A stretch of 59,075 nt of DNA from NCBI GenBank assembly GCA_026983715.1, contig JALSTM010000119.1, forward strand, positions 1 through 59,075. Direction: 5' to 3'. A program made the translations under genes and the position numbers. The notes below the pieces were generated by a model, which saw only the letters and a list, made by a program, of their open reading frames with translations, ran no database searches and was not told where the DNA came from. Below are positions 5,761 through 58,050 of the stretch, in pieces. Position 1 is the stretch's first letter, and each line of letters begins with the position of its first letter. The stretch is from Desulfobacterales bacterium (GTDB taxonomy: Bacteria; Desulfobacterota; Syntrophobacteria; B119-G9).

Positions 5761-5797
5761 TTTTATTTTTGTTCCTTGTGGTTACGCATAGCAAGTT

Positions 5798-6165: not shown

Positions 6166-6614
6166 TTATGACCCCACTAGGATCTCCAGGTATGAGTCAA
6201 CGACAGACTTGACCCCATTATGGGCGTTTTAAAGCCAGGATCTTGCCTTGTTCGTTAGGTTCGACACGATGTCGCATTTATATATGTGATTATAGTAGGT
6301 AACACTACTGGGAATCACAGGCGTATCCCCGCCGGTACCCTAGGGGAGTTGTGCTGACGAAGTGATAGGATTGAAACAACTCAAAGGGCTGCCTGTTCAG
6401 AAAGTATTGGATAGCATCAGGCCAAAGACATGTCTTTGCTGTTGTTGCCAAAACTGCTCAAGGCGTGATAAAAGTCTATCAGGTCGCGAGAATAAGTGCC
6501 GCAGGAATCAAAAAATTTGATAAAATGGAAGCGGCAGCGGGTTTTTACCTCCCGGAATTTGCTAGATACTTCTGGGAGTGCAGGAATAACATGGGTAATA
6601 AAAAGGGAGAGATT

Positions 6615-39000: not shown

Positions 39001-39149
39001 GACTTAACAACCCTTGACTCCAAGCCCATGGGGTCATTACGATTGACTAAAAGGAACTCTTGGCTCCGGAATGCTCCCTTCGCCATGCCGGACTCATGGC
39101 CTACTCGCCGGTTTTATAATTATCGTGTCAAACCAAAAGCCAGAGTACA

Positions 39150-39236
39150 GTCATTGCGATCCCGCACCCACTTCCTGCGAATTGTAGGAGCAATGGCAAA
39201 TAGTCGTATCTGAAGTAGGTGCGGGATCGCCATGAC
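39150..39236 (+). repeat. 87-bp palindrome-ended repeat (family M2), copy 1
   Basis: The sequence is gtcattgcgatcccgcac...gtgcgggatcgccatgac. Further copies lie at 44301-44387 and, rearranged and inverted, within 54391-54594. Confidence 0.8.
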
Positions 39237-39478
39237 AGAATGTTGCAAGTGTTTTTTGGGAATCGGTATCCTAGTTAGGGGCAAGCTTTGATCTGGCATC
39301 CAAAAAATTCCAAGCAGAGCAATCCCTGGATTCCCGCCTCCGCGGGAATGATAAGTCGCATAGCGACAACCAAAAACTTTTCTACGCCTAGAGGCGAGAG
39401 GTTTCGATCATCCCAGAAAGAGACACTACAAGATGTCCCCTGGCTTCTCGGAAGCCAGGGGGCATGGATTTTAGCCGC

Positions 39479-44016: not shown

Positions 44017-44090
44017 AAAAGTCGAGACTAATCTTACTCAAAGTCTGGTTGCCTCCCCTGCAGACCTTCCGCCAAACTTCCCCTCCCAGA

Positions 44091-44709
44091 TTAAGGGATC
44101 TCTGATAAATTCGGATCATTAGAACTAGTGGATCGATTCCTAAAGAACATTTGCAATATTCTGTCATTGCGAGGAGGCTACCAAAGGCAGACAACGAAGC
44201 AATCTCACTGGAATATCCAAGTCTTAGAATACTTCCCTATAAACATGTAGCGCTTTAGCGTGTCTTAATCCTGACAGTATCGCAAAAAATCTCCTGTTTT
44301 GTCATTGCGATCCCGCACCCACTTCCTGCGAATTGTAGGAGCAATGGCAAATAGTTGTATTTGAAGTAGCTGCGGGATCGCAATGACCGGTTTTAGGACT
44401 TTTTGCGAAACCATCAATATTTATCCTGAGTTTTGGTTGCGGCTTCGCTGCCTTAGCATTTTCGTCAATCAGTATCCTGAATCCGTGATCGTTCGCCTGG
44501 GCCGAAGGTGCAAGGAAGAGCCCGGCAGACTATAGTACGCCATGTCTGCTGGGCGATGACGCCGAAGATGCGGTGCAGGTGGACAACCTGCAGGGCGTAA
44601 GAAGATCGCTTGACAAGATGAAGAATAATCCACCCTAGCTATGTATCCAATAATGTGCAATTTAAATATGTTATACAAATTAGCCATAAGGTTTTATCAC
44701 GGATTCAGG
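44091..44709 (+). repeat. composite repeat block, left copy (leader repeat, M2 element, M1 MITE)
   Basis: 44091-44175 matches 54319-54402. An M2 copy lies at 44301-44387. An M1 copy lies at 44476-44709, with TIRs cctgaatccgtgat / atcacggattcagg. The same order recurs at 54319-54832. Confidence 0.8.
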
Positions 44710-44902
44710 AGTATCTCCTGATTGGCAAAAACAGCACTTTTTTCCGGATGCCCTGTGAATTTGCGATGACATTAAAAATCTTTTTTGAAACCCTCTAACG
44801 AAATGGTTTATTATGATAGCCAGATGTTGGCCTGTGATTGCTAAAAACGCACCTCAGTAGCCGATTTGTATTATCAACATAAAAGCTAAGCGAAAGGGGA
44901 AG

Positions 44903-45364: not shown

Positions 45365-46348
45365 TTACCTATACTTTTTCTTCCAGGCTTCAAAATCCCA
45401 GGTGGATAAGAATCTTTCAGCCGCGTTGACTCCGTTTTGAAAAAGCTTCCGGCTTTCTTCTTTCGTGATGTTAAAGTCTGTCGTTTTTATTTCTTTAGTT
45501 TTCCCATTTAGATTTATTGTGACAGGGATTCCTATAGTCCTATCATAATCACCCTTCGACTTTGATATATGGTAATTGTCGTGTGCATCCATCATGGTTC
45601 CAATAATGGCCTTCAGGAAACTGATAGGATTATTAATCGGGTTTCTACTTCCCGGCTTAAGAGTTCTTGTGTCCTCTTCAATGAGTTTAAATCCAAAGGT
45701 AGGCCACGGAGGATTACTCGTACCATCATCCAGCAACCATATCGGATAATTACTTAGGATACCCCCGTCTACAATGAAATGAACCCTGCCACTGGCGTCA
45801 GTTAGTTTTACAGGTTCAAAGAAAAAAGGAATGCTCATGCTCATCCGAACTGCCCTTGATATGCTGAACTGATCAGGGTCATAGCCGAGGGATTTCAGAT
45901 CCTGGGGAAGCACAAGGAGCCGCTTATCGGTTACATCCGAAGCTATAACCTGAAGCTTGTACCTGTATTTTTCTTCCTTGTACCTTGTCCTAATATCACC
46001 GAACATGGTTTTCCCTTTTTGAACCAGGAGATCATCCAGCCAGCCTTCAAAGTATTCCCCTTCGTATATGCCGTACTCAAAGCCAATACTCAATGCCTTC
46101 CCAAAGAGTCCCAGTTTATCTAGCAACCCTTCATCCTTGAACTTATTGTAATCGAGCTTTTCAAGTTCTTTCTTGATCCTGGAAGACCGGTAACCGACAG
46201 CCAATAGTGACGCCACGATAGCTCCGGCAGAAGTACCTGCAAGATTTTCAAATTTGTATCCAGCTTTCTCGACTACCTGCACGGCCCCAACAAGGCCAAT
46301 CCCCTTAACTCCTCCACCCTCAAAAACTGCGTCCACCTTTTTCGCCAT
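45365..46348 (-). CDS. patatin-like phospholipase
   Basis: It has the GGGVKG oxyanion motif, the GTSAG nucleophile elbow and the catalytic Asp motif DGGILSNYP. Confidence 0.85.
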   Translation of the reverse strand: MAKKVDAVFEGGGVKGIGLVGAVQVVEKAGYKFENLAGTSAGAIVASLLAVGYRSSRIKKELEKLDYNKFKDEGLLDKLGLFGKALSIGFEYGIYEGEYFEGWLDDLLVQKGKTMFGDIRTRYKEEKYRYKLQVIASDVTDKRLLVLPQDLKSLGYDPDQFSISRAVRMSMSIPFFFEPVKLTDASGRVHFIVDGGILSNYPIWLLDDGTSNPPWPTFGFKLIEEDTRTLKPGSRNPINNPISFLKAIIGTMMDAHDNYHISKSKGDYDRTIGIPVTINLNGKTKEIKTTDFNITKEESRKLFQNGVNAAERFLSTWDFEAWKKKYR

Positions 46349-46640
46349 TTCTTCCTCCGATATGAAAAATAAATGATTTAAAAAGACATTAGAAACCTCT
46401 GATTAGTTACCTAAAGAACCCAGGACCACCTGCACCCCGTGCCGATTCCCTGATCAAAGGTGTAGATTCGGCTCTCAGCTCCGCTTCGGCCGGATTGACG
46501 GATTTTGTATTGTGCATTCCTACTTCTATAATTGATTCCTAGTTCTAGGAATCCGAATCCATCTGGGTTTCCTAGAAAGAATTACTAACCCTCGCCTATG
46601 AGAGGGGGGGTGCCAACATCCTCGAAAGAAAACCCAAGCT

Positions 46641-47456
46641 TCATTTACATGTATCTGGCATTGCGATCCTTCGCCCCCAGTCTCTCAAAAGAGCAGCACC
46701 GGTAAGCTCCAGTTTTCCGGCTTCTTTTTCGAAATTCCCCCACACCACGCTAGCAATTGTGCACCATTCATCTATTTCCCTTGCCTTGTCAAAATGTTCC
46801 GGGGTTAAAACAGCGTATGCTCGCGGATTGCCTCTTAGGTCCGCCCAATTCTTGAGCGCCGCAAGTTCAGATAAAAGAATGTATAGGCGAATCTTCGAAC
46901 CGCGCGGTGCCTGAGAAAGTGCAGTATTCAAGTTCGCCAAGGAGTCCCGGAGTAGCCTCTTTAAATCAGCATATGGATAGTCTTTCTTCATCATGTGATG
47001 AAATGCCTGGTCATTTTTAACCAGTCCGCGAATTGCCAGAAGGAGGATTCGATCTCTTTCGAAGACTTTAGCTTTCGAATTTCCAAGGGCATCCGAAACG
47101 GTTTTCATGGCGCTCCCATAATCACCAAGCCTCCACTCAGCCATCGCCTTAATGGTATAAGCTGTACCCAGAAGCCTATCTTTCGCCAGGTTACTTTTGT
47201 TTTTTTCCAGCAGTTCAGATACAATTTTCACAGCCATCCTGTACGAAGTTGTAGCTTCTCCGGTTGATAGCAAGGCTTCCCCCGGATCTCCCAGCCTGGC
47301 ACGATTCTCTGCCGTCGCAGCCATGTTAAACTGCGTCTGTGCTTCTCTAAGCTGCTGAATGTGCGTTACACACCCACAAGCAACAAAAACAAGCATGCAA
47401 AAAGTGAAAAAAACCCTGCGTCTCAAAGGGCTTATCCTATTTAACTTAGTTCCCAT
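46641..47456 (-). CDS. probable secreted protein or lipoprotein, all-helical (TPR-like)
   Basis: It has an N-terminal signal-like segment ending FVACGC. Its start overlaps the stop of the upstream 601-aa gene by 11 nt. Confidence 0.55.
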   Translation of the reverse strand: MGTKLNRISPLRRRVFFTFCMLVFVACGCVTHIQQLREAQTQFNMAATAENRARLGDPGEALLSTGEATTSYRMAVKIVSELLEKNKSNLAKDRLLGTAYTIKAMAEWRLGDYGSAMKTVSDALGNSKAKVFERDRILLLAIRGLVKNDQAFHHMMKKDYPYADLKRLLRDSLANLNTALSQAPRGSKIRLYILLSELAALKNWADLRGNPRAYAVLTPEHFDKAREIDEWCTIASVVWGNFEKEAGKLELTGAALLRDWGRRIAMPDTCK

Positions 47457-49251
47457 TTATTCCTCCATTTATCGCATACATTAGCCCTTCCATAAACTCA
47501 CCTATGCTCCACACCTCTCCGCTTGAAATCTTTTTTATCTCTCTATCGATCGCAGCCTTTAGCAACCTTATATTTTTGGAAGAAATCCCTCCCTGTTCAA
47601 GTTGATCTAGGAATATCTCAACTATAACCTCAAACATTTCCTCCCTCCCAAGTACCCATCTAGCCTTTCTATCCACCTCGTCAGAAAGGATGGCAGATAC
47701 TACAGCATCGAGGGCAAGTCCTAGTAAAGTACTCGTCTTTCCATTAAGCGAAACCTTGTCTAGAAAATCCTTTCTCCGTGCAACAGCCTCTACTACTTCT
47801 AATATCACGGCCTTTGCCATGGTCGGGGTTATTCTATTCGGGGGCACTGACTTAAACGCATTTACGGCTTCCCTGATAGCCAAACCTGCAAGACTGCTCT
47901 CACCACCGGCAATATCAACCAGCCACTGAGGATTCTTGGCCACCTCCTCCAGCGTAGCCTCGAGGATATCAAGTATCTGGTTCTTCGTCAGTTCAAGTGT
48001 CCATCCGGAACCGCCGTCCATGGCATTGGCAAGTTCTTCAAGCACTTCTTTTGCCACGGTTATCAATAGGTGTTTGGCCGGGTCATTGAATCCGTCTGGC
48101 CATACAAGCCTTGCATTAATCGCAGTCTTTTCAAGAAGAAGGCGTACGATATCTGGTAGTAAGTCGATACCAATTTCTTGACTTGTAGCCGATAATTCAC
48201 TGGCAATCTCGGAAATTATTTTTTTTAGCCCTTCGTTATCAATACCCGCAAGCGAGGGGTACTCAGAAAGAACTTTAAGAGCTGCTTTGACCAGCTTGTC
48301 TATTGTTTTTCTGCCAAAGAGGTAGTCCAAGTCAAAGCTATCACTCCGGACCAAGAGGTCAACAATCGCTTTTCCAACCGATGTTACAAGAGCTTGCTCC
48401 TGCGGCTTGTGAATCGATAAGTATAAGCCAGGATTTTCGATAATTTCACTACTCAAATTGTTAAGGATGCTCCTCAGAACCAGCTGTGCCACGTCATATA
48501 CTCTTTCCTTCTTCGATAGGTCGGTTTCCCCGAGCTTTGCCAGGTACGCATTAATGTCAGAAACCAAGCCCCTGGAAACTGTTTCGACGAAGTGCTCCGT
48601 CACGTGATCGCCACCCAGAAGATCGGGATTTTCACCTATGGCTTCTATAGCCGCAATGAAAAGCCGACGAGCCAGCAGGTCTATTTCTTCCGAAGCAAAA
48701 TCTAGATCATCGATGGAATTAAGAAATCCAAGGAGCGCCCTTCCCTTTGCACTTTCCGTATCGATAAATTCGTGATTTGCTGAGAAATACTCGATCCCGA
48801 TCTCAATAGCCGTTCCTAGTATCCTCTGATAGACAGATGGAAAGGGGCTCTTTTTCAATGCCCACTGGCGTACTTTTACAAGGGAAAGAAGAGCTTCTGA
48901 CGTAAATCCAAGCTCATCTCCACGAATAACTCCTGCCTTAATGTCGTCTTCACGCTTGAAATCGAGGTAATAATCGACGTACTGTTCTTCTTCTGCCGGC
49001 GTCAGTTTTTCACCCCGCATCGATTTTTCATACAACTCCTTCAACCGAGCTACTTCGTTGAGATGTACTTGGCCGCTACCGCTAAAATATCCGTCTGCCG
49101 TCCCGATCTTAGCCTCGGGATTAAAGTCGGGTAGTGGTAGTACGAGTTCTCTTTTTATTGTAGCTTCAGCGTACGCCGTTTTTGCCTGGTGTCCCAGTTT
49201 AAGCCCAGCTTTTATTGCAAAGATGACCAGATCTCCAGTGCTAGTAAACAC
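47446..49251 (-). CDS. hypothetical 601-aa helical-repeat protein
   Basis: It is a long uninterrupted ORF with no P-loop or catalytic motif that I can recognise. It is translationally coupled to the downstream lipoprotein gene. Confidence 0.6.
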   Translation of the reverse strand: MFTSTGDLVIFAIKAGLKLGHQAKTAYAEATIKRELVLPLPDFNPEAKIGTADGYFSGSGQVHLNEVARLKELYEKSMRGEKLTPAEEEQYVDYYLDFKREDDIKAGVIRGDELGFTSEALLSLVKVRQWALKKSPFPSVYQRILGTAIEIGIEYFSANHEFIDTESAKGRALLGFLNSIDDLDFASEEIDLLARRLFIAAIEAIGENPDLLGGDHVTEHFVETVSRGLVSDINAYLAKLGETDLSKKERVYDVAQLVLRSILNNLSSEIIENPGLYLSIHKPQEQALVTSVGKAIVDLLVRSDSFDLDYLFGRKTIDKLVKAALKVLSEYPSLAGIDNEGLKKIISEIASELSATSQEIGIDLLPDIVRLLLEKTAINARLVWPDGFNDPAKHLLITVAKEVLEELANAMDGGSGWTLELTKNQILDILEATLEEVAKNPQWLVDIAGGESSLAGLAIREAVNAFKSVPPNRITPTMAKAVILEVVEAVARRKDFLDKVSLNGKTSTLLGLALDAVVSAILSDEVDRKARWVLGREEMFEVIVEIFLDQLEQGGISSKNIRLLKAAIDREIKKISSGEVWSIGEFMEGLMYAINGGINGN

Positions 49252-49382
49252 CTGTACCTCCTTGGTGACTCCATGGGAAATTCAATTTCCAATCCCACGG
49301 AGCTTTAATCGTACACATAAATTTGTCTATTAGCCTAGTTTCCCTACATTTCATCTCACTGGATGGATTTGTGAATTATCTG

Positions 49383-49521
49383 GAAACCGAGTTTTTCATA
49401 CCCAGAGCTAAAACCGTGGTCTACCTTGGTCGCAACCAGGAATTTCTATCACCCCATAACCCACGGTTTTAACCGTGGGAGAAACACTAAAACTCATCCA
49501 CAAACCGATTCATCGGTTTCA
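49383..49521. repeat. palindromic-repeat cluster 1 (CCCACGGTTTTAACCGTGGG type, bounded by AACCGATTCATCGGTTT-type palindromes)
   Basis: The region reads gaaaccgagtttttcat ... cccagagctaaaaccgtggt ... cccacggttttaaccgtggg ... aaaccgattcatcggtttc. Confidence 0.75.
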
Positions 49522-49643
49522 CTTATACCTTGGTTAGTTTGCTGCAAAGTCTGTTAACCTATTTAACCGCCGTAAAGAACCGGCACATTGTTAGCTTCTA
49601 AGAATAAATGGGCATTCCTGGGCTCCGATCAAGCGAGGTACTA

Positions 49644-51131
49644 TCATGCTGCCAATCCTGCGGAAGTACCAGACTTTCTAAGAAAACTCTTCAGCCCCAA
49701 AAGCGAATTCAACACATCATTCCAGAAAGGTGCCCCGAAGGAAATGAGTACTGCAGTGATAATCAATCCCAGGATCTTGGTAACGAGAACGAGGGGATCT
49801 TCCAGGTGAGATATGAGGGCATCAAATCTTTGAGAATTCCAACCCAGAGGCAATTCCACAGCACGTAGAAGACGCTTTTGCATCTCAACGGTTGTCAATT
49901 GAAGGGCCGCATACCTACGGGTCAGGTAAAAAAGAGCCGTACCAAGATCATCAAAAATAGCACGAATCCGTTCGCCGCCAAGTTCTTTTGCCGGAACATC
50001 TCTTTCCAGGTGACGTTTTAGATTACCGATTATATCATCTCCACCCTTTTCTGGTTGATAAGGAACTACTTTGCCACTCCTTTTTTCCACATCGAACCCC
50101 AAATCCTTGTAAAGCTCAAAATATTTTTCCAGAGCCAGGTATAACGCTTTGTATTTTCGATAATACTTCCTGTATGAATCCGCGTCCAACCTTTGGTTTT
50201 CTTCCAGGTAGTTTTCAATTTTGATTGCAAGATCGGAGAGTTCATTTATTGAAGCGCTCATAGGTTTCAGATCTACGCGGGTGGTTAGCAGGTCTGCCTT
50301 TTTCATTATTGCGGTTCGCACCTGGGGTGCATCTCTGAGGGTTCGATAAATGACGATAGAATCTGCATTCAGAAGGAAAACCATGGCAAGGCCGATACAA
50401 AATGTCCATACATTTATTTTTCTCACATACCTGTTTTCAAGGTCTCGTAATAGAGTCTCTCCCCTTAGAGAAAAACTGGTGTGAAGGTGAAAGATAAATT
50501 TTTCCACGCGGTCAAAAGTCTCGTTCAGTTCCTTAATAATGGCCAACATATCTCCCTTTAGTTTCAAAATTTCGTCTTCGACACCCGGCAAGGTGGATAT
50601 TCTTAGCAGAAGCTCTTCACATTTTCTTTGAACGCTTTTCAAGTCTTCCAGCGAGACCGTGTGCGACGAATGAGAAAACAGTTTCTTGTAGAGCTTGAAA
50701 ACATCATCAAAATCAATTACCAAGAGACTTGATACCAGTGGTAGGAGCTTCTTCCTGAAATCCACGAAGGCCGATCTTACGCTGGTGGTATCCTTACCAG
50801 GAGTCTCTTCAAGGAAATGTTCGAGATCAAGAAGGAAAGCCCGGATTTTTCTAAAGTCTTCAGCAAGGGAATTAATCGTTTTCTGAAAACCCTTGAATCT
50901 CTCTAGGGTTGACCCTATCGAACTCCGTTCTTTTCTGCTGCTAAGAGCTTCTTTTTCACGAAGTGAAACTCCAGGGAAAAGCTGTTTGTACATTTCAACA
51001 AGAAAATTCTCATACACAGCCCACCTTAGTTTCAGCAGGTTTTTGATGGCTTCAACAATTATTTGCAAAAAAACAGAGAGGCCGATTATTACCAGAACAT
51101 AGGAAATTAATACATCGAGGTTCTCCTGCAT
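49644..51131 (-). CDS. hypothetical 495-aa membrane protein with coiled-coil loops
   Basis: It has hydrophobic helices at the N terminus (VLISYVLVIIGLSVFLQIIV), mid-protein (VWTFCIGLAMVFLL) and C terminus (ILGLIITAVLISFGAPFW). Long charged helical regions lie between them. Confidence 0.6.
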   Translation of the reverse strand: MQENLDVLISYVLVIIGLSVFLQIIVEAIKNLLKLRWAVYENFLVEMYKQLFPGVSLREKEALSSRKERSSIGSTLERFKGFQKTINSLAEDFRKIRAFLLDLEHFLEETPGKDTTSVRSAFVDFRKKLLPLVSSLLVIDFDDVFKLYKKLFSHSSHTVSLEDLKSVQRKCEELLLRISTLPGVEDEILKLKGDMLAIIKELNETFDRVEKFIFHLHTSFSLRGETLLRDLENRYVRKINVWTFCIGLAMVFLLNADSIVIYRTLRDAPQVRTAIMKKADLLTTRVDLKPMSASINELSDLAIKIENYLEENQRLDADSYRKYYRKYKALYLALEKYFELYKDLGFDVEKRSGKVVPYQPEKGGDDIIGNLKRHLERDVPAKELGGERIRAIFDDLGTALFYLTRRYAALQLTTVEMQKRLLRAVELPLGWNSQRFDALISHLEDPLVLVTKILGLIITAVLISFGAPFWNDVLNSLLGLKSFLRKSGTSAGLAA

Positions 51132-51264
51132 GGGTTGATCTCCTGATTTCTACCCTACCCTGTAGCAATTGAGATTATCCGTATCCACGCAGAGATAGAG
51201 TTTGTTTAATTTTCATTTGTTCCTTTAAGATAACCCCTACCCATAGAAAATGAGAAATAGAAAC

Positions 51265-52134
51265 TTAAACAACGGCTTCAGAGATTTCATCAATGGCACT
51301 TGCATAAGCCTGGGCAAGGCCATCCTTGTTATTCATCGCCCTTTCCAGGTCATTATCGTTATCGATAAAAAAAGGCTCTGCAATCACGCACGGTGCGTTA
51401 GTGTAACGAAGAAGGTAACCTCCCCTATCTTCGGCTGTTTTCGGCTTTATGCCCCTACTTGGCAATTTGAGGCATCCCACCAGGTGTCTCAAAATAATCT
51501 CCGCCATTCTTTTGCCCCGTGTCGACTTGTGGTAGTAGAGTATCTCCGTACCCGAAGCTTTTTTATTAAACGCGTTACAGTGGAGGCTCACCACGAAGTC
51601 TGGATCAAGGGAGTTGATATCGCCTGGAAGTTCCCTGTACGTTCTCCTGTATATTCTCTGTACTTCAGTAGTGCGAACCTTCTTTTCAATCCTCAGCGCC
51701 AGATCTTCGTTGAACTCGAATTCACTGATACTTGAATTTACGTTCACGGCTCCAGGAGATCGCTTTTTGTGCCCAATTACAAGAGCACAAAGCTTTCTAT
51801 CTTCTTCCGGAATTTTTACTTCAGGCACGGGTTCCGCATGTTCGCCTTTGATATCCTCAAGAGTGAGGATGCCTTTTTTAAGGAGGGTCCTCACGATAAT
51901 GGCACTCACGGGAGAAAGAACCTCAACGATGGTAGCCGAGTAAATAACATTTCCGGACTTTATACCGCTTACCAGTGCCATTTTGCCAGCATCTTCACTA
52001 GATACCTTAAGAACGCCAGACTCGGGACTAACCGCTTCCTGCAAAGAAACGGCGGTCATCAGGAGTTTCTTAGAGTCAACCCTCAGAAAACCATCCCTAT
52101 CCAGGACACCAAGAATTAAATCACCTTTTTCCAT
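51265..52134 (-). CDS. N-acetylmuramoyl-L-alanine amidase (Amidase_3) with an unrecognised N-terminal domain of about 110 aa
   Basis: The sequence LVIGHKKRSPGAVN...VSLHCNAF...GTEILYY...AEPFFIDNDND matches the Zn-amidase Amidase_3 pattern. Confidence 0.75.
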   Translation of the reverse strand: MEKGDLILGVLDRDGFLRVDSKKLLMTAVSLQEAVSPESGVLKVSSEDAGKMALVSGIKSGNVIYSATIVEVLSPVSAIIVRTLLKKGILTLEDIKGEHAEPVPEVKIPEEDRKLCALVIGHKKRSPGAVNVNSSISEFEFNEDLALRIEKKVRTTEVQRIYRRTYRELPGDINSLDPDFVVSLHCNAFNKKASGTEILYYHKSTRGKRMAEIILRHLVGCLKLPSRGIKPKTAEDRGGYLLRYTNAPCVIAEPFFIDNDNDLERAMNNKDGLAQAYASAIDEISEAVV

Positions 52135-52637
52135 TAGATTTCTCCCGTTTGCGGTAATAGGTCACTCGTTTCTGACAACAAAGTTATCTATTACGCATCT
52201 CCCTTTTTCGCTGAATATATACTGGCTTTACCGATAAGACACGCCTCGGTTACCCAAGGATCCCCTGTGAAATAGGTGTCCTGCCAACCCCAAGCCAAGT
52301 GAACCAAAAACGTTAATCAAGGCATCAAGAAGTAGCAGAGGGAGCGGTAACATTCTATTACCTCATCCGCAGGACGCATAGAAAGTCTAAGAGCTAACCA
52401 GATAGTGATAGATCTCGGCGTGATAAGCTATCCTCAATTCGGAATTTCGCTAAGCTCGTAATGTTCTTAACATAACACACAAAAACTGGCCGGGAAAGCA
52501 GAATATGGGTACTATCTATAAAAACCTTCTGTTGACTTTAAAGGGTTAGCTGTACTAAGAGATTGAGCGTTTCATAAAGATACGAGAAATTTGCCAGAGA
52601 CCTGTACAAAATATCAACCAACTGAGGAACAGTCAAA

Positions 52638-53529: not shown

Positions 53530-54306
53530 ATGAAGATTACCGACTTTAGGGTTTGCACTGTTGGAACAGGGACAGGAGTTCCGAGGGTCAAACGAAGATC
53601 CCCAGCTACCTTGGTCAAGATAAACAGGCACCTGCTCCTGTTCGACACTGGTCCCGGAACGTTGAGGGCCCTTGAAGAAGCAGGAAGAAGTTTCCGCGAT
53701 ATTGATTATATTTTCTATACTCACTTTCACCCTGATCACCTGAGCGATTTGGTTCCCTTTCTTTTCGTGGCACATTCCCCTGACTATGGCAGAAAAAAAC
53801 CCGTGGAAATCTGGGGAGCCCGCGGACTTGCCAAAATATATCACAAGTACGTGGAAATATTCGGGCACTGGGTGGAGTTATCCCCATCCGAACTTTCCAT
53901 AAAAGAAATCGATTCCCGACAAATCAACAATTTCGAGGTACCATTTGGAAAGCTAATAACTTACCCGATGTACCACACGTCAAGAAGTGTGGGATACAGA
54001 ATTGAGATTGACGATGTCCCCTACCTTGCTATCACGGGAGACACCGAGTACGGTGAAAACGTACTGAAGCTTGCCCGGAACGTAAAAATCCTGGTGGCTG
54101 AATGTTCTTTTCCCGACCCAAAAGAACCCAGGGGACATCTCACCCCATCAAGGGTTGGGCGAATTGCCCGGGAAGCAAACTGCAAACACCTCGTGCTTAC
54201 CCACATGTATCCGGAGTGCGACAAGGTGAACCTCTTTGAACAGGTCAGAAAAGAGTTTGACGGTAGAATAACCGTCGGAAGAGACCTCATGTGGATAGTG
54301 TTTTAG
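53530..54306 (+). CDS. MBL-fold metallo-hydrolase (RNase Z/BN-like)
   Basis: It carries the HFHPDH motif and a later LTH. Confidence 0.8.
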   Translation: MKITDFRVCTVGTGTGVPRVKRRSPATLVKINRHLLLFDTGPGTLRALEEAGRSFRDIDYIFYTHFHPDHLSDLVPFLFVAHSPDYGRKKPVEIWGARGLAKIYHKYVEIFGHWVELSPSELSIKEIDSRQINNFEVPFGKLITYPMYHTSRSVGYRIEIDDVPYLAITGDTEYGENVLKLARNVKILVAECSFPDPKEPRGHLTPSRVGRIAREANCKHLVLTHMYPECDKVNLFEQVRKEFDGRITVGRDLMWIVF

Positions 54307-54318
54307 TCATTCTCAGAA

Positions 54319-54832
54319 TTAAGGAAACTCGGATAAATTCGGATCTTTAGAACTAGTGAATCGATTCCTAAAGAACATTTGCAACATTCTGTCATTGCGA
54401 GGATCCCGCACCCACTTTATGACAATGTTTCCGACTTAATATCAAGATGTATGGCTTAAAGTGGGTGCGGGAGACGAAGCAATCTCCCTCGAATATCAAA
54501 GCGTTGGAGATTGCTTCTCCCGCGCTTACTTCAAATACGACTATTTGCCACTGCTCCTACAATTCGCAGGAAGTGGGTGCAGGATCGCAATAACTATGCT
54601 TTAGCTTTGTGTTTGACACAATCCTAAATCCGTGATCGTTCACCTGGGCCGCAGATGCAAAGAAAAGCCCGGCAGGTGATAACGCCAAAGATCCGGTGCA
54701 CCTCGACGACTTGCAGGGCGCAAAAAAGATTGCTTGAGAAGGTGAAGAATAATGCCCCTCGCTATGTAGCCACTAATGAGCAATTTAGACATGTGATACA
54801 AATTAGCCATAAAGTTTCGTCACGGATTCAGG
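54319..54832 (+). repeat. composite repeat block, right copy (leader repeat, rearranged M2 element, M1 MITE)
   Basis: 54319-54402 matches 44091-44175. A compound palindromic M2-like element lies at 54391-54594. An M1 copy lies at 54623-54832. Confidence 0.8.
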
Positions 54833-54898
54833 AAGATATCAAATAAAGGAGTAAGCCGAAGCCTGTCATTCCTTTGCGAAATACCAGTCATGTGATGT

Positions 54899-55156
54899 GA
54901 GAAACCGATGAATCGGTTCTTGGGGTTCGTATGCTATTTATACCCACGGTTAAAACCGTGGGCTACCTGACCCATCAGCCGAACAGCGTTCCCTTCAATC
55001 CACGGTTTTAACCAGGATCTGTCCGTATTTTTAGAGTTCGCCACCTTGAACCCACGGTTTTAACCTTACATCCTTACATGGATATCCTGCTAGCCCACGG
55101 TTTTAACCGTGGGTAGATGATGGACCAATTACATCAATAACCGATTCATCGGTTTC
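54899..55156. repeat. palindromic-repeat cluster 2
   Basis: Four copies or half-copies of CCCACGGTT(T/A)AAACC(GTGGG) lie at 54943, 55000, 55041 and 55094. They are bounded by gaaaccgatgaatcggttc and aaccgattcatcggtttc. Confidence 0.8.
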
Positions 55157-55646
55157 TAACCAAAGGAGAAATTTTAATCAAGGAGAAAATCTTATAACCA
55201 TGGGTTTCTAGAACTAGCAATTAATTGAAGTAGGACAAAAACAATCCAAAATCCGTCATTCAGTCCGAAACGAAGCGGAGAGCCGGAATCTATCACCGTC
55301 ACCGTTTATCTAGATGTCGAAGATGCGCCTCAGGTGTCCCGCATCAAAGCCTGCCCCTTATCTAGTCAGGGGGCGGTATGACGTGCAAATGATCCTCGGG
55401 GTATTTGCGTAATTAATCAGGGGTTCCTTTAATCTAATTTCAAAAGAATTGTAGGAAGTGTGATGTTCTACATGAATTTGATCAGATTTTTTCTCCACGT
55501 CTTTATAACTTTAGGGATTTTTTACCTGCCTAAAATCAACTGGAAGCAATTCCATGCAGGAGTATTTGTGCCAAAAATCCTGGCCTAGCGCCCCGCGCTT
55601 TCTTGAACCACGGATTAGTACCGAGCCATCATTCCTCGAGTCGCCA

Positions 55647-56000
55647 CTAATCCTTTAAAGGAGATTCCTTATTCAGGATTTCTTTAATTTTCAGCCGAAG
55701 AGTTGGGATCTTGTTAGTTACAACATCCCACACGATCTCATAGTCTATTCCAAAATAATCGTGTATTAATTTGTCTCTCATCCCTGCCATAGCTTTCCAT
55801 TCAATGCGAGGATATTTTTACTTGAACTCAGAAGGAATCTTCTTAACTGCTTCACCAATAATTTCGATGCTTCGTACAAAGGCCCTTTTCATGGTTTCAT
55901 CGTCAAGAAAATCTTCTTTCCCTCAATTTGCTGATTGTTCTATGAGATATTCAATTTCATCCATAACATGGCGTAGGTACTCAAGAGGAAAAATTGACAT
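55647..56000 (-). pseudogene. HepT (DUF86) toxin gene inactivated by two in-frame stop codons
   Basis: My manual minus-strand translation is MSIFPLEYLRHVMDEIEYLIEQSAN*GKEDFLDDETMKRAFVRSIEIIGEAVKKIPSEFK*KYPRIEWKAMAGMRDKLIHDYFGIDYEIVWDVV... The stops are a TGA at 55923-55925 and a TAA at 55818-55820. The Rx4HxY motif is still present. The gene overlaps the MNT stop by 20 nt. Confidence 0.75.
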
Positions 56001-56316
56001 ATTCCACCTCTCTAATAATATGTGGGCCGATGTATGGGCTGAGAGCATCAATTGTAATTAGCTCTACTCGACGCTCAAGGATTTCCTCTAAAAAGAAGGC
56101 GAGCTCTATAAAATTATCGAAGCTCTTTTTATCTTCCTCAAACTCCACTAGTAAATCTATATCGCTTTCGCGCTTGTATTCGCTACGAACAAAGGAGCCA
56201 AAGAGACCCAATCTCCTTACTCCGTAAGACATTATTTTGTCTTGGTTTGAACGGATTAACTCCAGAACGTGTTCTTTCGTCTCAATCTCTCGCGCTGTCA
56301 TATAATCACCTATCAT
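55981..56316 (-). CDS. mntA: MNT-type nucleotidyltransferase antitoxin (divergent from the copy at 5470-5760)
   Basis: It contains LGLFGSFVRSEYKRESDIDLLVE. The product is 111 aa. Confidence 0.85.
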   Translation of the reverse strand: MIGDYMTAREIETKEHVLELIRSNQDKIMSYGVRRLGLFGSFVRSEYKRESDIDLLVEFEEDKKSFDNFIELAFFLEEILERRVELITIDALSPYIGPHIIREVEYVNFSS

Positions 56317-56510
56317 TTTTTTATCAATCTATTGGTAGTTTAACAAGTTATTATATGATTTCTAGATATCTAGCAAACACAAGATAGATTGACAAGGATA
56401 GCGCAAGAATTCGTCTGTAGAAAGTTGCTTACCCTTTCTTCTGTGTCCTTTCCTTGTGGCATCCTTCCTTCACACCGTGAAGTTCTATTAGTTTGACTCA
56501 TGTCATGGGA

Positions 56511-56717
56511 TCAAGTCTGCTCTTGACTCATGTTGAGGTCGTGTTTTATTTGCTCAATTCGTTTTTTGAGAGTGCGACCTTTGATTGTCCTTTACTTTGT
56601 GTGGAACCACTCCCATTTCTCCGACCGACTAAGATAGCCTTTTTGGCTGCTCAACTCATAGCATTTTGAGCGATCCTCCTTTCCCGCTGCCAGGGGATTT
56701 CTGTGGATATCACCCCA
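56511..56717 (-). pseudogene. second copy of the IS200/RAYT-like transposase C-terminal remnant, with an internal stop
   Basis: The minus-strand translation is ...QKGYLSRSEKWEWFHTK*RTIKGRTLKKRIEQIKHDLNMSQEQT*, homologous to 5959-6165. Confidence 0.3.
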
Positions 56718-58050
56718 TTATTGACTCCACTAGGATCTCCAGGTGTGAGGCAAGGACAGACTAGACCCAAATACTTTCAGAAATTAATACGAGATTTTCA
56801 TGCTTTGTGAGACGCGTACCATCTGAAGGTTTTAAAAATGCGAGTCCCTTTCAACAGTAGGGTGGGCTGTGCCCACCATTTTAGGGGAGCCGAGATGAGA
56901 ATTCCCTACTTTGTAAAAGGGGGATTTCATGCTTTCTTACATGATGAAGGTTTGTTATGTCTTCAACTCTAAGTAGATCCTTGGAGAAGGTTTTATCGGT
57001 CGTTGTGGCTGACCCAATATGGTCCAGCTATACTTGCGAGTCACCAGAAAGAGTATTACGCTATTTTTCCTAAAAAGCAGGCTTCTTATCTTATGAGTTT
57101 TAAATCCCCCTATGTTAGGTGCACCTCAACCCCACTACATTTACACCATTTATTTTTTCGTAAACCTCAGTGACACCCTTCAACAACTCATCCCAACTCT
57201 TTGTATTCCCCTCTTTTTCAGTCCTGTTATCAATAACCAAGAATACTGCAAATCCACTTGACGCAATCCATGCAGGGTACCATCGACAACCTTCCACTAC
57301 GACGAGTTAACAAAAGGGGAACGACGCAGGAATCTCCCTGGAATGTCGAGGTGTCAGAGATTACTTCGCCACGCTCGCGATGACCTTGATCCAAATTTCC
57401 ATCGGGTTAGAGGATTGGTTTCCTCCGGATCATTTTCATTCAGAAGACGAGAAAACGTAACCTCGGAGAGGTAAAGAATTAGCTAGCCTATGGTTTCCAC
57501 CGTGGGCATGATAGATTCGAAGTATAACAGATTGAAATAATTCCCTATAAACATGTAACGTTTTAGCGTGTCATAGTTCTTATACTACCACTGCCATCAT
57601 AAATGAACCGCTCGCTTTGCTCAAGCCGCGAAGAACTATAAGAAGGAAAATATTGGGGGCGGCCGATTAATGCTGCCCACAGTGTCTTGCACCCTTTCAG
57701 GCTAGCAAGGGCAATGGACAACACGCATATCCTAGGAAACGCACGCAAGACACAAAGTTTCGGGTGCCAACTCAAGGTGTCTGAACTTAACAGCATGCCC
57801 GAAGGGCAGGTTTCTTTCCTTGAGCAGGCACTTGCCCCGTGAAATTTTTATCCAGTGAAACCTTGAATTGTTTCACCAGGACCGAAAGACATGTAGTATT
57901 TCACTGGGGAACTGCTCAAGGAAAAAAGAGTATCCCTTTGCGCTCTTTGCCTGCCCCGTTAAATCTTGTAACATTTAACGAGGGCGTCTTGGCGGTTCAA
58001 ACTTGGTTCGGCTCGCTGCCTTAGTTTTGTAAGCCGGTTAGCGACTTTTT

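What the first reader, a model, noticed from the sequence alone, without database searches (positions are those of the whole stretch)
45365..52134. Candidate uncharacterised envelope-targeting module: patatin phospholipase, lipoprotein, 601-aa helical protein, 495-aa coiled-coil membrane protein and Amidase_3 with a novel N-domain
Five consecutive minus-strand genes combine two lytic activities that attack different envelope layers. One is a GxSxG/DGG patatin lipase. The other is a Zn peptidoglycan amidase fused to an N-terminal domain of about 110 aa that I cannot place.

The three proteins between them show no motif I recognise. The 601-aa gene and the lipoprotein gene overlap by 11 nt, indicating translational coupling. 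The 495-aa protein has three TM helices separated by long charged coiled coils.

Patatin effectors are recurrent in abortive-infection and conflict systems, and the block lies inside a repeat-bracketed interval. It could be a defence or lysis system, or an inter-bacterial weapon with novel sensor or scaffold components.

A caveat is that intergenic gaps of 292, 392 and 133 bp, two of them filled with repeats, mean the five genes may not form one operon.
Basis: inference. Interest (0 to 1): 0.7.

Follow-up and report, generated by a model that had tools for sequence, protein, structure and literature searches.

The report
Unannotated envelope system with swappable lytic enzymes
The five genes belong to a conserved, so far unnamed bacterial gene system: an invariant pair (a 600-aa helical protein plus a lipoprotein), often joined by a three-pass membrane protein and by interchangeable cell-wall- and membrane-degrading enzymes; its function is untested, most plausibly triggered self-lysis or defence.

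Summary
All five minus-strand genes, their gaps, the 11-nt overlap and the catalytic motifs are as described.

Across 36 distinct related loci from at least six phyla:
- The 601-aa helical protein and the lipoprotein are always adjacent: 15/15 loci with 3 kb or more on both sides. They often share the same 11-nt overlap.
- The 3-TM protein (7/15), patatin (6/15), a peptidoglycan hydrolase (5/15) and a metallophosphoesterase (4/15, absent from this window) come and go.
- The enzymes are swapped between unrelated families: Amidase_3, Amidase_2+SH3, PG_binding_1/lysozyme-like, and three patatin subfamilies, one CapV-like. All lack signal peptides.
- Peptidoglycan hydrolase presence tracks the 3-TM protein (7/8 vs 3/14 loci).

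The 601-aa, lipoprotein and 3-TM proteins match no Pfam, NCBIfam, PADLOC or PHROG family and no PDB sequence. The 601-aa and lipoprotein models also find no specific fold. The 601-aa family is nevertheless large (789 clusters at 50% identity), and every named source entry checked reads 'hypothetical protein'.

The non-enzymatic parts evolve 3-5 times faster than the flanking genes.

The repeat 'bracket' consists of dispersed intergenic repeats, not island ends. No neighbouring defence genes were seen, and the 601-aa family was not found in the phage, viral-contig or plasmid collections searched.

Best reading, with function inferred only: a trans-envelope core controlling cytoplasmic lytic effectors.

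The parts
51265..52134 (-). Signal-less N-acetylmuramoyl-L-alanine amidase. It has a system-specific N-domain (residues 1-113, 51796-52134) and an endolysin-type Amidase_3 catalytic domain (residues ~114-289).
   Evidence: - PF01520, 100 bits; phrog_435 endolysin, 5.6e-43.
- 41-47% identical to Vibrio and Shewanella phage endolysins, from residue ~114 onward.
- H122, E138, H185 and E253 are invariant.
- The N-domain has no PDB or phage match and occurs only in this system's amidases.
- Conserved together with the N-domain in the Nitrospirota locus L024, at 59% identity.
49644..51131 (-). 495-aa inner-membrane protein with three conserved TM segments (~7-25, 236-254, 447-465) and two variable helical loops of about 200 aa. 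Predicted topology: N-terminus out, C-terminus in.
   Evidence: - Hydropathy.
- Family alignment A4 shows conservation concentrated in the TM and juxtamembrane motifs LNAD..YRTLRD and LPLGW..FGAPFWND.
- No Pfam, PADLOC, PHROG or PDB family.
- Homologues lie next to the 601/lipoprotein pair in 10 of the 22 assessable loci.
- It tracks peptidoglycan hydrolases: 7/8 vs 3/14 loci, Fisher p = 0.006, not corrected for phylogeny.
- The topology is inferred from charge distribution.
49252..49643 (.). 392-nt gap enlarged by dispersed palindromic repeats (CCCACGGTTTTAACCGTGGG type).
   Evidence: Repeat copies at 49401-49479 and 49498-49549 have partners at 54872-55160 and 57484-57506. The equivalent gap is 12-160 nt in L014, L023, L024 and L012.
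47446..49251 (-). 601-aa acidic, cysteine-free, all-alpha protein. It is core component 1, with no signal peptide or TM segment.
   Evidence: - AlphaFold2 model: about 30 helices, pLDDT 71.8.
- No Foldseek match in PDB or BFVD at E < 0.07; no Pfam, NCBIfam, PADLOC or PDB sequence match.
- The family has 789 representatives at 50% identity, many with 2-5 copies of the C-terminal module of about 270 aa.
- pI 4.9, 0 Cys.
46641..47456 (-). 271-aa basic TPR-like lipoprotein. It is core component 2 and is translationally coupled to the 601-aa gene.
   Evidence: - Invariant lipobox Cys29 and a conserved C-terminal Cys pair.
- AlphaFold2 pLDDT 91.5, 12 helices; best Foldseek matches are 14-3-3 and TPR solenoids, E ~1e-2.
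- Adjacent to the 601-aa gene in 15/15 loci with full flanks.
- The 11-nt overlap with an internal SD recurs in L003, L012, L014, L009 and L019.
46349..46640 (.). 292-nt gap with a dispersed-repeat copy and a terminator-like hairpin. The patatin may have its own promoter here.
   Evidence: - Repeat 46469-46513 pairs with 55241-55285.
- Terminator-like site at 46439-46421 on the minus strand, a consensus scan only.
- The equivalent gap is 40-150 nt in L003, L006, L011, L017 and L022.
45365..46348 (-). Signal-less patatin-like phospholipase with an intact Ser40/Asp194 dyad.
   Evidence: - PF01734, 113 bits; alignment to PlpD, VipD and ExoU.
- Patatins of three subfamilies follow the core in 9 of 22 assessable loci, in addition to the 601-less L015.
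- In this lineage it is as conserved as the flanks: 89% identity, dN 0.08.
52135..52637 (-). Divergent intergenic region upstream of the amidase. This is the likely operon promoter region.
   Evidence: No ORF. A promoter-like site TTGACT-17-TATTTT at 52636-52608 on the minus strand, from a consensus scan only. Sequence read.

Best explanation
The block is one instance of a widespread but undescribed multi-component envelope system.

**Core and membrane component**
- The invariant core is a cytoplasm-synthesised 600-aa helical-repeat protein plus a translationally coupled, extracytoplasmic TPR-like lipoprotein.
- A three-pass inner-membrane protein carries one large helical loop on each side of the membrane. 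It is the frequent third component and the obvious physical link between the two compartments.

**Enzymes**
- Interchangeable degradative enzymes are attached to this scaffold. All are made without signal peptides.
- In this window they are an endolysin-type peptidoglycan hydrolase (Amidase_3 with a private N-terminal adaptor domain) and a patatin phospholipase.
- Sister loci add a metallophosphoesterase.

**Proposed mechanism (inferred, not shown)**
1. The core holds or senses the state of the envelope.
2. On a trigger such as phage attack or envelope damage, the effectors are released or activated.
3. The patatin degrades inner-membrane lipid. The 3-TM protein, in a holin-like role, gives the endolysin access to the cell wall.
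4. The result is regulated lysis of the producing cell: abortive-infection-like suicide, or programmed lysis.

That this is a real, conserved functional unit is well supported. The lysis/defence function is a hypothesis.
For: **Conserved unit**
- 601 + lipoprotein are adjacent in 15/15 fully flanked loci, out of 36 distinct loci. The same 11-nt overlap occurs in several lineages.
- The loci come from Desulfobacterota, Nitrospirota, Methylomirabilota, Planctomycetota, Verrucomicrobiota and Bacteroidota.

**Accessory genes recur on the same strand, tightly packed.** Among the 15 fully flanked loci: 3-TM 7/15, patatin 6/15, peptidoglycan hydrolase 5/15, metallophosphoesterase 4/15, any enzyme 9/15.

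**Effector swapping**
- Peptidoglycan hydrolases:
  - Amidase_3 (window, L003, L012, L014, L024).
  - Amidase_2+SH3_3 (L015).
  - PG_binding_1 with a lysozyme-like or unassigned catalytic region (L023, L039, L042).
  - All have PHROG endolysin-family hits and no room for a signal peptide.
- Patatins of three subfamilies. The L006 patatin scores 197 bits on the CBASS lipase model against a cutoff of 200, and 1e-75 on PADLOC.

**Sub-modules**
- Peptidoglycan hydrolase tracks the 3-TM protein (7/8 vs 3/14, p = 0.006).
- The trio 3-TM + amidase + patatin also exists without the core (L015).

**Compartments**
- Lipobox Cys and a conserved Cys pair in the lipoprotein.
- No N-terminal signal-like segment on the 601-aa protein, the amidase or the patatin.
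- Charge distribution consistent with N-out/C-in topology for the 3-TM protein.

**Rate pattern between close relatives**
- Slow: flanks dN 0.05-0.13; patatin dN 0.08; amidase catalytic domain about 71-80% identical.
- Fast: amidase N-domain 40-52% identical; lipoprotein dN 0.31-0.35; 601-aa protein dN 0.28-0.38; 3-TM protein dN 0.45.
- Gene content also varies between close relatives: metallophosphoesterase present or absent, 3-TM present or absent.
Against: - There is no experimental or expression evidence.
- The four non-patatin proteins have no PADLOC hit. The patatin has only weak generic phospholipase-effector hits.
- No restriction, CRISPR, integrase or other known defence-system genes appear in about ten annotated neighbourhoods; one locus (L012) has a HicA toxin gene.
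- In its own lineage the locus sits at a fixed place between housekeeping genes in all relatives seen. That is unlike typical defence-island turnover.
- Four of 15 loci have only the 601/lipoprotein pair and no enzyme nearby, so lysis cannot be the pair's only role unless partners are encoded elsewhere.
- The tight coupling of a protein without a signal peptide to an extracytoplasmic lipoprotein is unexplained if the two bind each other.
- Fast evolution of helical scaffold proteins can simply reflect weak constraint. dS is saturated, so selection cannot be tested.
- The 3-TM protein is 3-5 times larger than any holin I know of.
Confidence: 0.4

Rival explanations
1. Export or envelope-remodelling machine, resembling a type 10 secretion system or a specialised cell-wall-breaching assembly. 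In this reading the acidic, cysteine-free, repeat-built 601-aa protein is the cargo or structural element. It crosses the inner membrane with the help of the 3-TM protein. The endolysin-type hydrolase opens the cell wall locally, and the basic TPR-like lipoprotein receives or anchors the cargo at the outer membrane.
For: - This resolves the compartment paradox of a signal-less protein translationally coupled to a lipoprotein.
- The charges are complementary: pI 4.9 versus 9.6.
- The family is cysteine-poor.
- Variable copy number of the C-terminal module (600 to 1637 aa) suggests a ruler or fibre-like structural protein.
- The locus is syntenically stable within the lineage.
- Peptidoglycan hydrolase tracks the 3-TM protein.
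Against: - The roles of the patatin and metallophosphoesterase are not explained.
- Pair-only loci lack any export partner nearby.
- No secretion signal of any known type was detected, and there are no Pfam secretion domains in nine long family members.
- Swapping between unrelated hydrolase families is more typical of effectors than of dedicated assembly enzymes.
Confidence: 0.25
2. Not one system. The 601/lipoprotein pair is a unit of unknown housekeeping-like function. The patatin, amidase and 3-TM genes are merely neighbours in some lineages and act independently, for example in lipid turnover and cell-wall recycling.
For: - In this window the patatin is separated by 292 nt containing a terminator-like hairpin.
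- The patatin evolves at the rate of the flanking housekeeping genes.
- Four of 15 loci have the pair alone.
- Gaps of 133-392 nt in this window.
Against: - Enzymes of the same two activities, drawn from unrelated families and subfamilies, recur next to the core in different phyla. They lie on the same strand, with 12-90-nt spacing.
- Inherited synteny cannot explain convergent recruitment.
- The amidase N-domain is found only in this context.
- The window's large gaps are repeat insertions.
Confidence: 0.15
3. Inter-bacterial weapon. The patatin and amidase are exported toxins acting on neighbouring cells, and the lipoprotein serves as periplasmic immunity protein.
For: - Phospholipase and amidase effectors paired with periplasmic or lipoprotein immunity proteins are the classic type VI secretion payloads (established knowledge).
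- RHS toxin cassettes exist elsewhere in the window, at 1078-3820.
Against: - No VgrG, PAAR, Hcp or other secretion-system genes appear in any annotated neighbourhood.
- The enzymes carry no recognisable delivery domains.
- The lipoprotein co-varies with the 601-aa protein, not with either enzyme. It is present in loci with no enzyme at all.
Confidence: 0.07

Closest known systems
Phage holin-endolysin-spanin lysis cassettes and the type 10 secretion systems derived from them
   Same: - A signal-less, endolysin-type peptidoglycan hydrolase is encoded next to a membrane protein.
- That membrane protein is predicted to be N-out/C-in with three TM segments, the topology I recall for class I holins such as lambda S105.
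- A lipoprotein is encoded in the same operon.
- The catalytic domain is 41-47% identical to real phage endolysins.
   Different: - The membrane protein is 495 aa, with two loops of about 200 aa, rather than roughly 70-150 aa.
- The lipoprotein is a 271-aa TPR-like solenoid, not a small o-spanin, and there is no i-spanin.
- There are no phage genes nearby.
- The 601-aa family was not found in the viral-contig, phage or plasmid collections, and the 3-TM protein was not found in the phage records.
- The extra 601-aa core protein, the patatin and the metallophosphoesterase have no counterpart.
Patatin-effector abortive-infection systems (CBASS with CapV and other PADLOC phospholipase-effector systems)
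   Same: A cytoplasmic patatin phospholipase appears to act as a membrane-degrading effector. In one sister locus (L006) the patatin is nearly a CapV equivalog: 197 bits against a cutoff of 200.
   Different: - No CD-NTase cyclase or any nucleotide-signalling gene lies in the operon.
- The window's patatin scores only 27 bits on the CBASS lipase model.
- The partner proteins are unrelated to any CBASS component.
Envelope-anchored defence systems such as Zorya (ZorAB membrane complex with a long helical cytoplasmic tail, plus soluble effectors) and Kiwa
   Same: The concept is shared: a membrane- and cell-wall-associated complex with long helical cytoplasmic parts that could relay an envelope signal to soluble cytoplasmic effectors.
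   Different: - There is no sequence relationship: no PADLOC hits.
- There is no MotAB-like stator and no peptidoglycan-binding OmpA-like domain.
- The effectors here attack the envelope rather than DNA.
- The resemblance is from memory and is functional only.
TPR-type outer-membrane lipoprotein scaffolds of cell-wall enzymes (NlpI, LpoA)
   Same: A helical-hairpin (TPR-like) lipoprotein is encoded together with a peptidoglycan hydrolase.
   Different: - No NCBIfam or Pfam match to NlpI or LpoA.
- Foldseek shows only generic 14-3-3/TPR similarity, TM 0.35-0.45.
- The associated hydrolases are cytoplasmic endolysin types, not periplasmic housekeeping enzymes.
- The distribution is patchy rather than universal.

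Membership tests
Patatin-like phospholipase (PF01734) | Pfam score above the gathering cutoff; oxyanion G-G-G-x-K/R-G, nucleophile G-x-S-x-G and catalytic D-G-G/A motifs | tested here: met
   112.8 bits against a cutoff of 27.7. GGGVKG at 11-16, GTSAG with Ser40 and DGG with Asp194, seen in the sequence and in the alignment to PlpD.
Amidase_3 N-acetylmuramoyl-L-alanine amidase (PF01520) | Pfam score above the cutoff; zinc ligands His/Glu/His and catalytic Glu | tested here: met
   100.2 bits against a cutoff of 27. H122, E138, H185 and E253 are invariant in the five orthologues; residue roles are assigned from knowledge of the family.
CBASS (CapV-type patatin effector) | Patatin reaches the curated CBASS_lipase equivalog cutoff | tested here: not met
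   The window patatin scores 27.1 bits against a cutoff of 200. The patatin of sister locus L006 scores 197.4, just below the cutoff.
CBASS (CapV-type patatin effector) | CD-NTase cyclase encoded in the same operon | tested here: not met
   No cyclase family appears among the precomputed Pfam hits of any gene within 10 kb in the window's contig or in the sister loci. The four partner proteins have no PADLOC hit.
Phage lysis cassette / type 10 secretion system | Endolysin without signal peptide | tested here: met
   PHROG endolysin families match. The N-terminus MEKGDLILGVLDRDGF is not signal-like. Signal-peptide absence was judged by eye and by hydropathy only.
Phage lysis cassette / type 10 secretion system | Small holin (about 70-200 aa) and a spanin pair or unimolecular spanin; prophage or cargo context | tested here: not met
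   - The membrane protein is 495 aa and the lipoprotein is 271 aa and TPR-like.
- Neither has a PHROG hit.
- The 601-aa family has no relatives in the viral-contig, phage or plasmid collections, and the 3-TM protein has none in the phage records.
Zorya or other catalogued anti-phage systems (PADLOC-DB 2.0) | Component proteins match the system's profile models | tested here: not met
   Only weak generic phospholipase-effector hits for the patatin. Nothing for the other four window proteins, nor for the non-patatin accessory proteins of sister loci.
Type VI lipase/amidase effector-immunity pairs (Tle/Tli, Tae/Tai) | Linkage to VgrG, PAAR, Hcp or a T6SS cluster; the immunity gene co-varies with its effector | tested here: not met
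   No such Pfam families appear in any annotated neighbourhood. The lipoprotein is present in 15/15 loci regardless of enzymes, including four loci with no enzyme.
Housekeeping envelope factors (NlpI, LpoA/B, Tol-Pal, Bam/Lpt/Lol components, division proteins) | Match to a curated NCBIfam or Pfam model of the family; near-universal presence in the phylum | tested here: not met
   There are no matches above noise for the three unknown proteins. The 601-aa family has 789 clusters at 50% identity among 1.84 billion representatives, scattered over at least six phyla. Presence or absence per complete genome was not measured.

The most novel reading that the evidence does not exclude
This is a new, widespread class of trans-envelope immune or programmed-lysis system. 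A lipoprotein, a three-pass membrane protein and a helical-repeat cytoplasmic protein together sense an envelope event such as phage adsorption or injection. They then unleash interchangeable cytoplasmic lytic effectors: endolysin-type hydrolases (possibly via a private adaptor domain), patatin phospholipases and metallophosphoesterases. The 3-TM protein acts as a giant regulated holin.
Probability: 0.3. Interest if true: 0.85.

Novelty: categorically new. Interest (0 to 1): 0.66.

Why it matters
- **Unannotated core.** Three protein families that form the core match no curated family in the libraries searched here, although the 601-aa family alone has 789 clusters at 50% identity across at least six phyla.
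- **Defence-like architecture.** An invariant non-enzymatic core combined with swappable envelope-degrading enzymes of phage-endolysin and CapV-like types is the pattern that has repeatedly marked new defence systems.
- **Unusual effectors.** Here the effectors would act on the cell's own wall and membrane. The sensor would span the envelope, a layer of immunity that is still poorly understood.
- **Value if not defence.** The system would then be an unrecognised machine for regulated lysis or for moving a large protein across the diderm envelope, in environmentally important anaerobes (Desulfobacterota, Nitrospirota, anammox Planctomycetota).
- **Testability.** Either way it gives testable handles: catalytic point mutants, a private amidase adaptor domain and a conserved intramembrane motif.

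Tried and rejected
**Placing the three unknown proteins**
- Sequence profiles of the 601-aa, lipoprotein and 3-TM families against PDB returned only designed helical repeats or coiled-coil noise. For the lipoprotein there was also a repeat-summation artefact on WD40 proteins with no passing stretch.
- Foldseek of the 601-aa model against PDB and BFVD gave nothing below E = 0.07. The lipoprotein model matched only generic 14-3-3/TPR folds.
- Pfam on nine long 601-family members and on all 13 3-TM family members gave only noise.

**Amidase N-domain**
- The phrog_435 alignment formally starts at residue 22.
- The N-domain alone finds no phage match. All individual strong phage hits start at residues 108-117, and the PDB profile search is empty.
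- I therefore rejected the idea that the N-domain is a known endolysin module.

**Mobility and context**
- Phage or plasmid carriage of the 601-aa family is rejected. The 3-TM protein is also absent from the phage records.
- The repeat-bracketed island idea is rejected, because synteny runs across the repeats in relatives.
- Rfam found no regulatory RNA in the window, only a tRNA.

**Selection.** dN/dS could not be computed because synonymous sites are saturated (pS >= 0.75) in every gene, including the flanks.

**Literature.** Five full-text searches found no description of this gene set. The Lipocone paper (PMC12419801) mentions patatin and lipoprotein operons, but of a different kind.

- The first genome scan with the 23-sequence alignment failed for lack of conserved stretches. 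It was repeated with closer sequences.

Full report
**1. Observation**

| Gene | Coordinates | Length |
|---|---|---|
| Patatin | 45365-46348 | 327 aa |
| Lipoprotein | 46641-47456 | 271 aa |
| Helical protein | 47446-49251 | 601 aa |
| Membrane protein | 49644-51131 | 495 aa |
| Amidase | 51265-52134 | 289 aa |

- **Gaps and overlap.** The gaps are 292, 392 and 133 nt. The 601-aa gene and the lipoprotein gene overlap by 11 nt (ATGGGAACTAA), and a GGAGGA Shine-Dalgarno sequence sits 7 nt upstream inside the 601-aa gene.
- **Patatin.** PF01734 at 113 bits, with GGGVKG, GTSAG (Ser40) and DGG (Asp194).
- **Amidase.** PF01520 at 100 bits over residues 118-282. H122, E138, H185 and E253 are invariant among orthologues.
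- **The three middle proteins** have no significant Pfam, NCBIfam, PADLOC or PHROG match.
- **495-aa protein.** Hydropathy finds three TM segments at about residues 7-25, 236-254 and 447-465.
- **Lipoprotein family.** It has an invariant Cys after G/A at the end of an N-terminal hydrophobic stretch. Most members also have a conserved C-terminal cysteine pair. Both features fit an extracytoplasmic lipoprotein.

**2. Context and the repeats**

- The flanks are housekeeping genes: inositol-1-phosphate synthase, CDP-alcohol phosphatidyltransferase, a CBS protein, a PHP phosphoesterase, an MBL-fold hydrolase and polyprenyl synthase.
- The window is rich in dispersed intergenic repeats. Related copies lie at 39122-39276, 44090-44720, 54318-55160 and 57324-57587.
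- Small copies sit inside two gaps of the block, at 46469-46513 and 49401-49549. They include a 23-nt palindrome family with six copies.
- Three relatives (L003, L013/L014) have flanking proteins 82-92% identical to the window's. They keep the same gene order across both 'bracketing' repeats.
- The repeats therefore enlarge intergenic gaps but do not delimit an inserted island.
- In other loci the same genes lie 12-90 nt apart (L014, L023, L024, L017).

**3. Neighbourhood conservation**

Homologues of the 601-aa protein were collected by several routes:
- a word-indexed search (28 clusters);
- an exhaustive profile search (789 representatives at 50% identity with E <= 1e-3, 350 with E <= 1e-30);
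- contig look-ups;
- a genome scan and a metagenome scan.

Family HMMs built from the collected neighbours were run over all ORFs of 47 loci, which collapse to 36 groups at >=90% identity of the 601-aa protein.

Among the 15 groups with at least 3 kb on both sides:

| Component next to the 601-aa gene | Groups |
|---|---|
| Lipoprotein, immediately downstream | 15/15 |
| 3-TM protein | 7/15 |
| Patatin | 6/15 |
| Peptidoglycan hydrolase | 5/15 |
| Calcineurin-like metallophosphoesterase (Pfam Metallophos above cutoff; absent from this window) | 4/15 |
| At least one enzyme | 9/15 |
| Only the 601/lipoprotein pair | 4/15 |

Gene orders seen include:
- Ami-3TM-601-LP-Pat (window, L012);
- Ami-MPE-3TM-601-LP-Pat (L013/L014/L018);
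- Ami-MPE-601-LP-Pat (L003);
- MPE-601-LP-Pat (L011, L022, L032);
- Ami-3TM-601-LP (Nitrospirota, L024);
- PGB-3TM-601-LP (Thermodesulfovibrio, L023);
- 601-LP-3TM (L004);
- 601-LP-3TM-PGB (L042);
- 601-LP-3TM-Pat (L017);
- 601-LP-Pat (Planctomycetota, L006).

The organisms named in the records are MAGs of Desulfobacterota, Nitrospirota, Methylomirabilota, Planctomycetota (Scalindua), Verrucomicrobiota and Bacteroidota. No relative of the 601-aa protein was found in IMG/VR viral contigs, GenBank phages or PLSDB plasmids, and none of the 3-TM protein in the phage records.

**4. The enzymes are interchangeable and of 'inside-out' type**

*Peptidoglycan hydrolases*
- The window's amidase catalytic domain is 41-47% identical to single-domain endolysins of Vibrio and Shewanella phages. 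It matches PHROG endolysin families.
- Other loci carry different hydrolases instead:
  - an Amidase_2+SH3_3 protein (L015);
  - proteins of about 315 aa with a PG_binding_1 domain (L023, L042; L039 has a GH46/lysozyme-like domain plus PG_binding_1).
- In all of these the first domain starts within about 30 residues of the N-terminus, or the N-terminus is plainly not signal-like. As with canonical endolysins, they are made in the cytoplasm and need a breach of the inner membrane to reach their substrate.

*Patatins*
- Three subfamilies occur: the window type, 76-90% identical in L003, L011, L012 and L014 (L022 and L032 carry patatins recognised by the same family HMM); an L015/L017 type, about 30% identical to the window's; and a CapV-like one in L006.
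- The L006 patatin scores E = 1e-75 on PADLOC phospholipase-effector models, and 197.4 bits on NCBIfam CBASS_lipase against a cutoff of 200.

*Associations*
- Peptidoglycan hydrolase presence is associated with the 3-TM protein: 7 of 8 loci versus 3 of 14, Fisher p = 0.006.
- Metallophosphoesterase presence is associated with the patatin: 5 of 6 versus 4 of 16, p = 0.02. Neither test is corrected for phylogeny.
- A module 3TM-Amidase_2-...-patatin also exists without the 601/lipoprotein pair (L015).
- The system therefore looks like a combination of a [601+LP] core with a [3TM+hydrolase] sub-module and a [patatin +/- phosphoesterase] sub-module.
- Convergent recruitment of the same two activities from unrelated families cannot be explained by inherited synteny. 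It is the main argument that the five window genes work together.

**5. The unknown proteins**

*601-aa protein*
- The AlphaFold2 model, built from a 23-sequence alignment, is all-alpha with about 30 helices. Mean pLDDT is 71.8; the C-terminal half scores 80-90, and the highly conserved N-terminal 44 residues score below 50.
- Foldseek finds nothing in PDB or BFVD below E = 0.07.
- The protein is acidic (pI 4.9) and has no cysteine.
- Longer family members (850-1640 aa, for example in Saprospiraceae/Lewinella) repeat the C-terminal module of about 270 aa two to five times. They contain no Pfam domain.

*Lipoprotein*
- The model is confident (pLDDT 91.5): a 12-helix solenoid. Its best structural matches are 14-3-3 and TPR proteins, at E ~1e-2 and TM 0.35-0.45.
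- It is a generic helical-hairpin scaffold, and it is basic (pI 9.6).

*3-TM protein*
- Family conservation is concentrated in the three TM segments and their borders: MQENLDVLISFV..., LNAD..IYRTLRD and LPLGW...ISFGAPFWNDVL. The two loops of about 200 aa are variable.
- Charge distribution fits an N-out, C-in topology, with loop 1 cytoplasmic and loop 2 periplasmic (inference).
- The profile search against PDB sequences finds only coiled-coil noise.

*Amidase N-domain*
- It is conserved from Desulfobacterota to Nitrospirota at 40-52% identity.
- It occurs only in this system's amidases and has no PDB or phage relative.
- It is most simply read as a private adaptor or regulatory domain.

**6. 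Rates of change**

Comparison is between the window and its syntenic relatives L003 and L014.

| Gene or part | Non-synonymous divergence (dN) | Protein identity |
|---|---|---|
| Flanking genes | 0.05-0.13 | 82-92% |
| Patatin | 0.08 | 89% |
| Amidase, whole | 0.24-0.25 | 65-67% |
| Amidase catalytic domain | n/a | about 71-80% (five-orthologue set) |
| Amidase N-domain | n/a | 40-52% (five-orthologue set) |
| Lipoprotein | 0.31-0.35 | 56-62% |
| 601-aa protein | 0.28-0.38 | 53-62% |
| 3-TM protein | 0.45 | about 50% |

- Gene content also differs between these close relatives: the metallophosphoesterase and the 3-TM protein are each present in some and absent in others.
- Synonymous sites are saturated everywhere. 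It cannot be decided whether this reflects diversifying selection, weak constraint on helical scaffolds, or allele replacement.

**7. Interpretation**

*Shown*
- A conserved, tightly coupled 601/lipoprotein pair.
- Recurrent, same-strand association with a 3-TM protein and with catalytically intact, signal-less envelope-degrading enzymes drawn from several unrelated families.
- No relationship of the core proteins to any curated family or solved structure.
- Chromosomal location, not viral or plasmid.

*Inferred*
- The proteins form a trans-envelope assembly: lipoprotein outside, 3-TM protein in the inner membrane, 601-aa protein and enzymes inside.
- This assembly keeps the lytic enzymes in check and releases them on a signal.
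- The patatin attacks the inner membrane from within. The 3-TM protein plays a holin-like role for the endolysin.
- The outcome is regulated lysis, as abortive infection or programmed lysis.

*Against a typical defence system*
- Neighbouring defence systems are absent from about ten annotated neighbourhoods, apart from one HicA toxin gene in L012.
- PADLOC gives only weak generic hits to the patatin.
- The locus is stable within its lineage.
- Some loci contain only the pair.
- A signal-less protein is tightly coupled to an extracytoplasmic partner, which the model does not explain.

The main rival reading is an export or envelope-remodelling machine with the 601-aa protein as cargo or structural element. 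It explains the compartment paradox and the module-number variation, but not the patatin or the phosphoesterase.

**8. Comparison with known systems**

- The closest functional analogues are phage holin-endolysin-spanin cassettes and type 10 secretion systems, patatin-effector abortive-infection systems such as CBASS, and envelope-anchored defence systems such as Zorya.
- Membership was tested and failed for each:
  - The window patatin scores 27 bits on the CBASS lipase model against a cutoff of 200, and no cyclase is present.
  - The membrane protein and the lipoprotein are far outside holin and spanin sizes, and there is no phage context.
  - There are no PADLOC matches for any non-enzymatic component.
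- The two enzymes themselves are ordinary members of Patatin and Amidase_3.
- Five full-text literature searches found no description of this gene set.
- Every named source entry among the 601-family clusters checked reads 'hypothetical protein'. For the lipoprotein family, a few JGI entries say 'tetratricopeptide (TPR) repeat protein'.

**9. Verdict**

- The genes do form a conserved envelope-targeting module with novel components. The real unit, however, is a 601/lipoprotein core with facultative 3-TM, hydrolase, patatin and phosphoesterase parts.
- The repeats are incidental, and the defence/lysis function remains a hypothesis.
- I give about 0.4 to the regulated self-lysis reading. That these genes form a real conserved functional unit seems to me much more secure.
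- The core lies far from every described system, so I rate it categorically new in composition, with function unproven.

Noticed in passing
window 1-3820 (ORFs 193-789, 1078-1755, 2675-3820): Three partly repeated segments (1-252, 1309-1560 and 3053-3304, 80-91% identical). They hold ORFs with the RHS core-end motif (PF03527) followed by different C-termini. This looks like an array of orphan RHS polymorphic-toxin cassettes.
   Followed up: partly
window 5097-5760 and 55339-56773: A HepT (HEPN ribonuclease, PF01934) ORF lies next to a 96-aa ORF that reads like an MNT-type nucleotidyltransferase. This is a toxin-antitoxin pair at 5097-5760. An element of about 1.4 kb around it (4775-6220) is duplicated at 55339-56773 (86-95% identity), 1 kb beyond the MBL gene that flanks the studied block. 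The second copy keeps an MNT-like ORF (55981-56316), but no intact HepT ORF was seen.
   Followed up: partly
window 39122-39276, 44090-44720, 54318-55160, 57324-57587, 46469-46513, 49401-49549: Several families of dispersed intergenic repeats (REP/MITE-like), including an 87-nt hairpin element (39150-39236 and 44301-44387) and a 23-nt palindrome CCCACGGTTTTAACCGTGGG with six copies. They inflate the intergenic gaps in this genome compared with its relatives.
   Followed up: partly
L006 12755-13798 (Planctomycetota MAG): A nearly canonical CapV/CBASS-type patatin (197.4 bits against a cutoff of 200; PADLOC 1e-75) sits directly after the 601/lipoprotein pair. No cyclase appears among the annotated neighbours. 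This raises the question of what activates it.
   Followed up: partly
L015 5758-11979 (also L016): A related module lacks the 601/lipoprotein core. Its order is: a 306-aa membrane protein, a 3-TM homologue (32% identical), Amidase_2+SH3_3, three small ORFs (138, 144 and 99 aa, the last two looking helical and charged), then a patatin 65% identical to that of L017.
   Followed up: partly
P0073-P0101 and similar (601-aa family): Many family members are 850-1640 aa long and contain 2-5 tandem copies of the C-terminal module of about 270 aa. The longest named ones come from Saprospiraceae/Lewinella. In L029 (Phaeodactylibacter, 1133 aa) no lipoprotein partner was detected; only about 1.6 kb downstream was available.
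   Followed up: no
window 53530-54306 and L009 9205-9972: The MBL-fold gene flanking the block matches the Pfam Anti-Pycsar_Apyc1/Lactamase_B_2 models in precomputed hits. In unrelated locus L009 another such MBL (also matching PDEase_II) lies 6 kb from the core, beside cNMP-binding and GAF-HD genes. This may be coincidence, or a hint of cyclic-nucleotide involvement.
   Followed up: no
window 37522-39000: A 492-aa ORF with no Pfam match is only 59% identical to its syntenic counterpart in L003. Its neighbours are 82-91% identical, so this is another fast-evolving unknown gene in the same region.
   Followed up: no
alignment A2 (lipoprotein family), profile positions 119-145: The family profile gives whole-sequence E-values down to 2.6e-10 against WD40 repeat proteins in PDB, yet no single stretch passes. 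This is probably a short motif summed over repeats and therefore an artefact, but it is unexplained.
   Followed up: no
window 12865-17088: A 1407-aa protein has PPDK_N and PEP-utilizers domains only in its last ~450 residues. About 950 N-terminal residues have no Pfam match.
   Followed up: no
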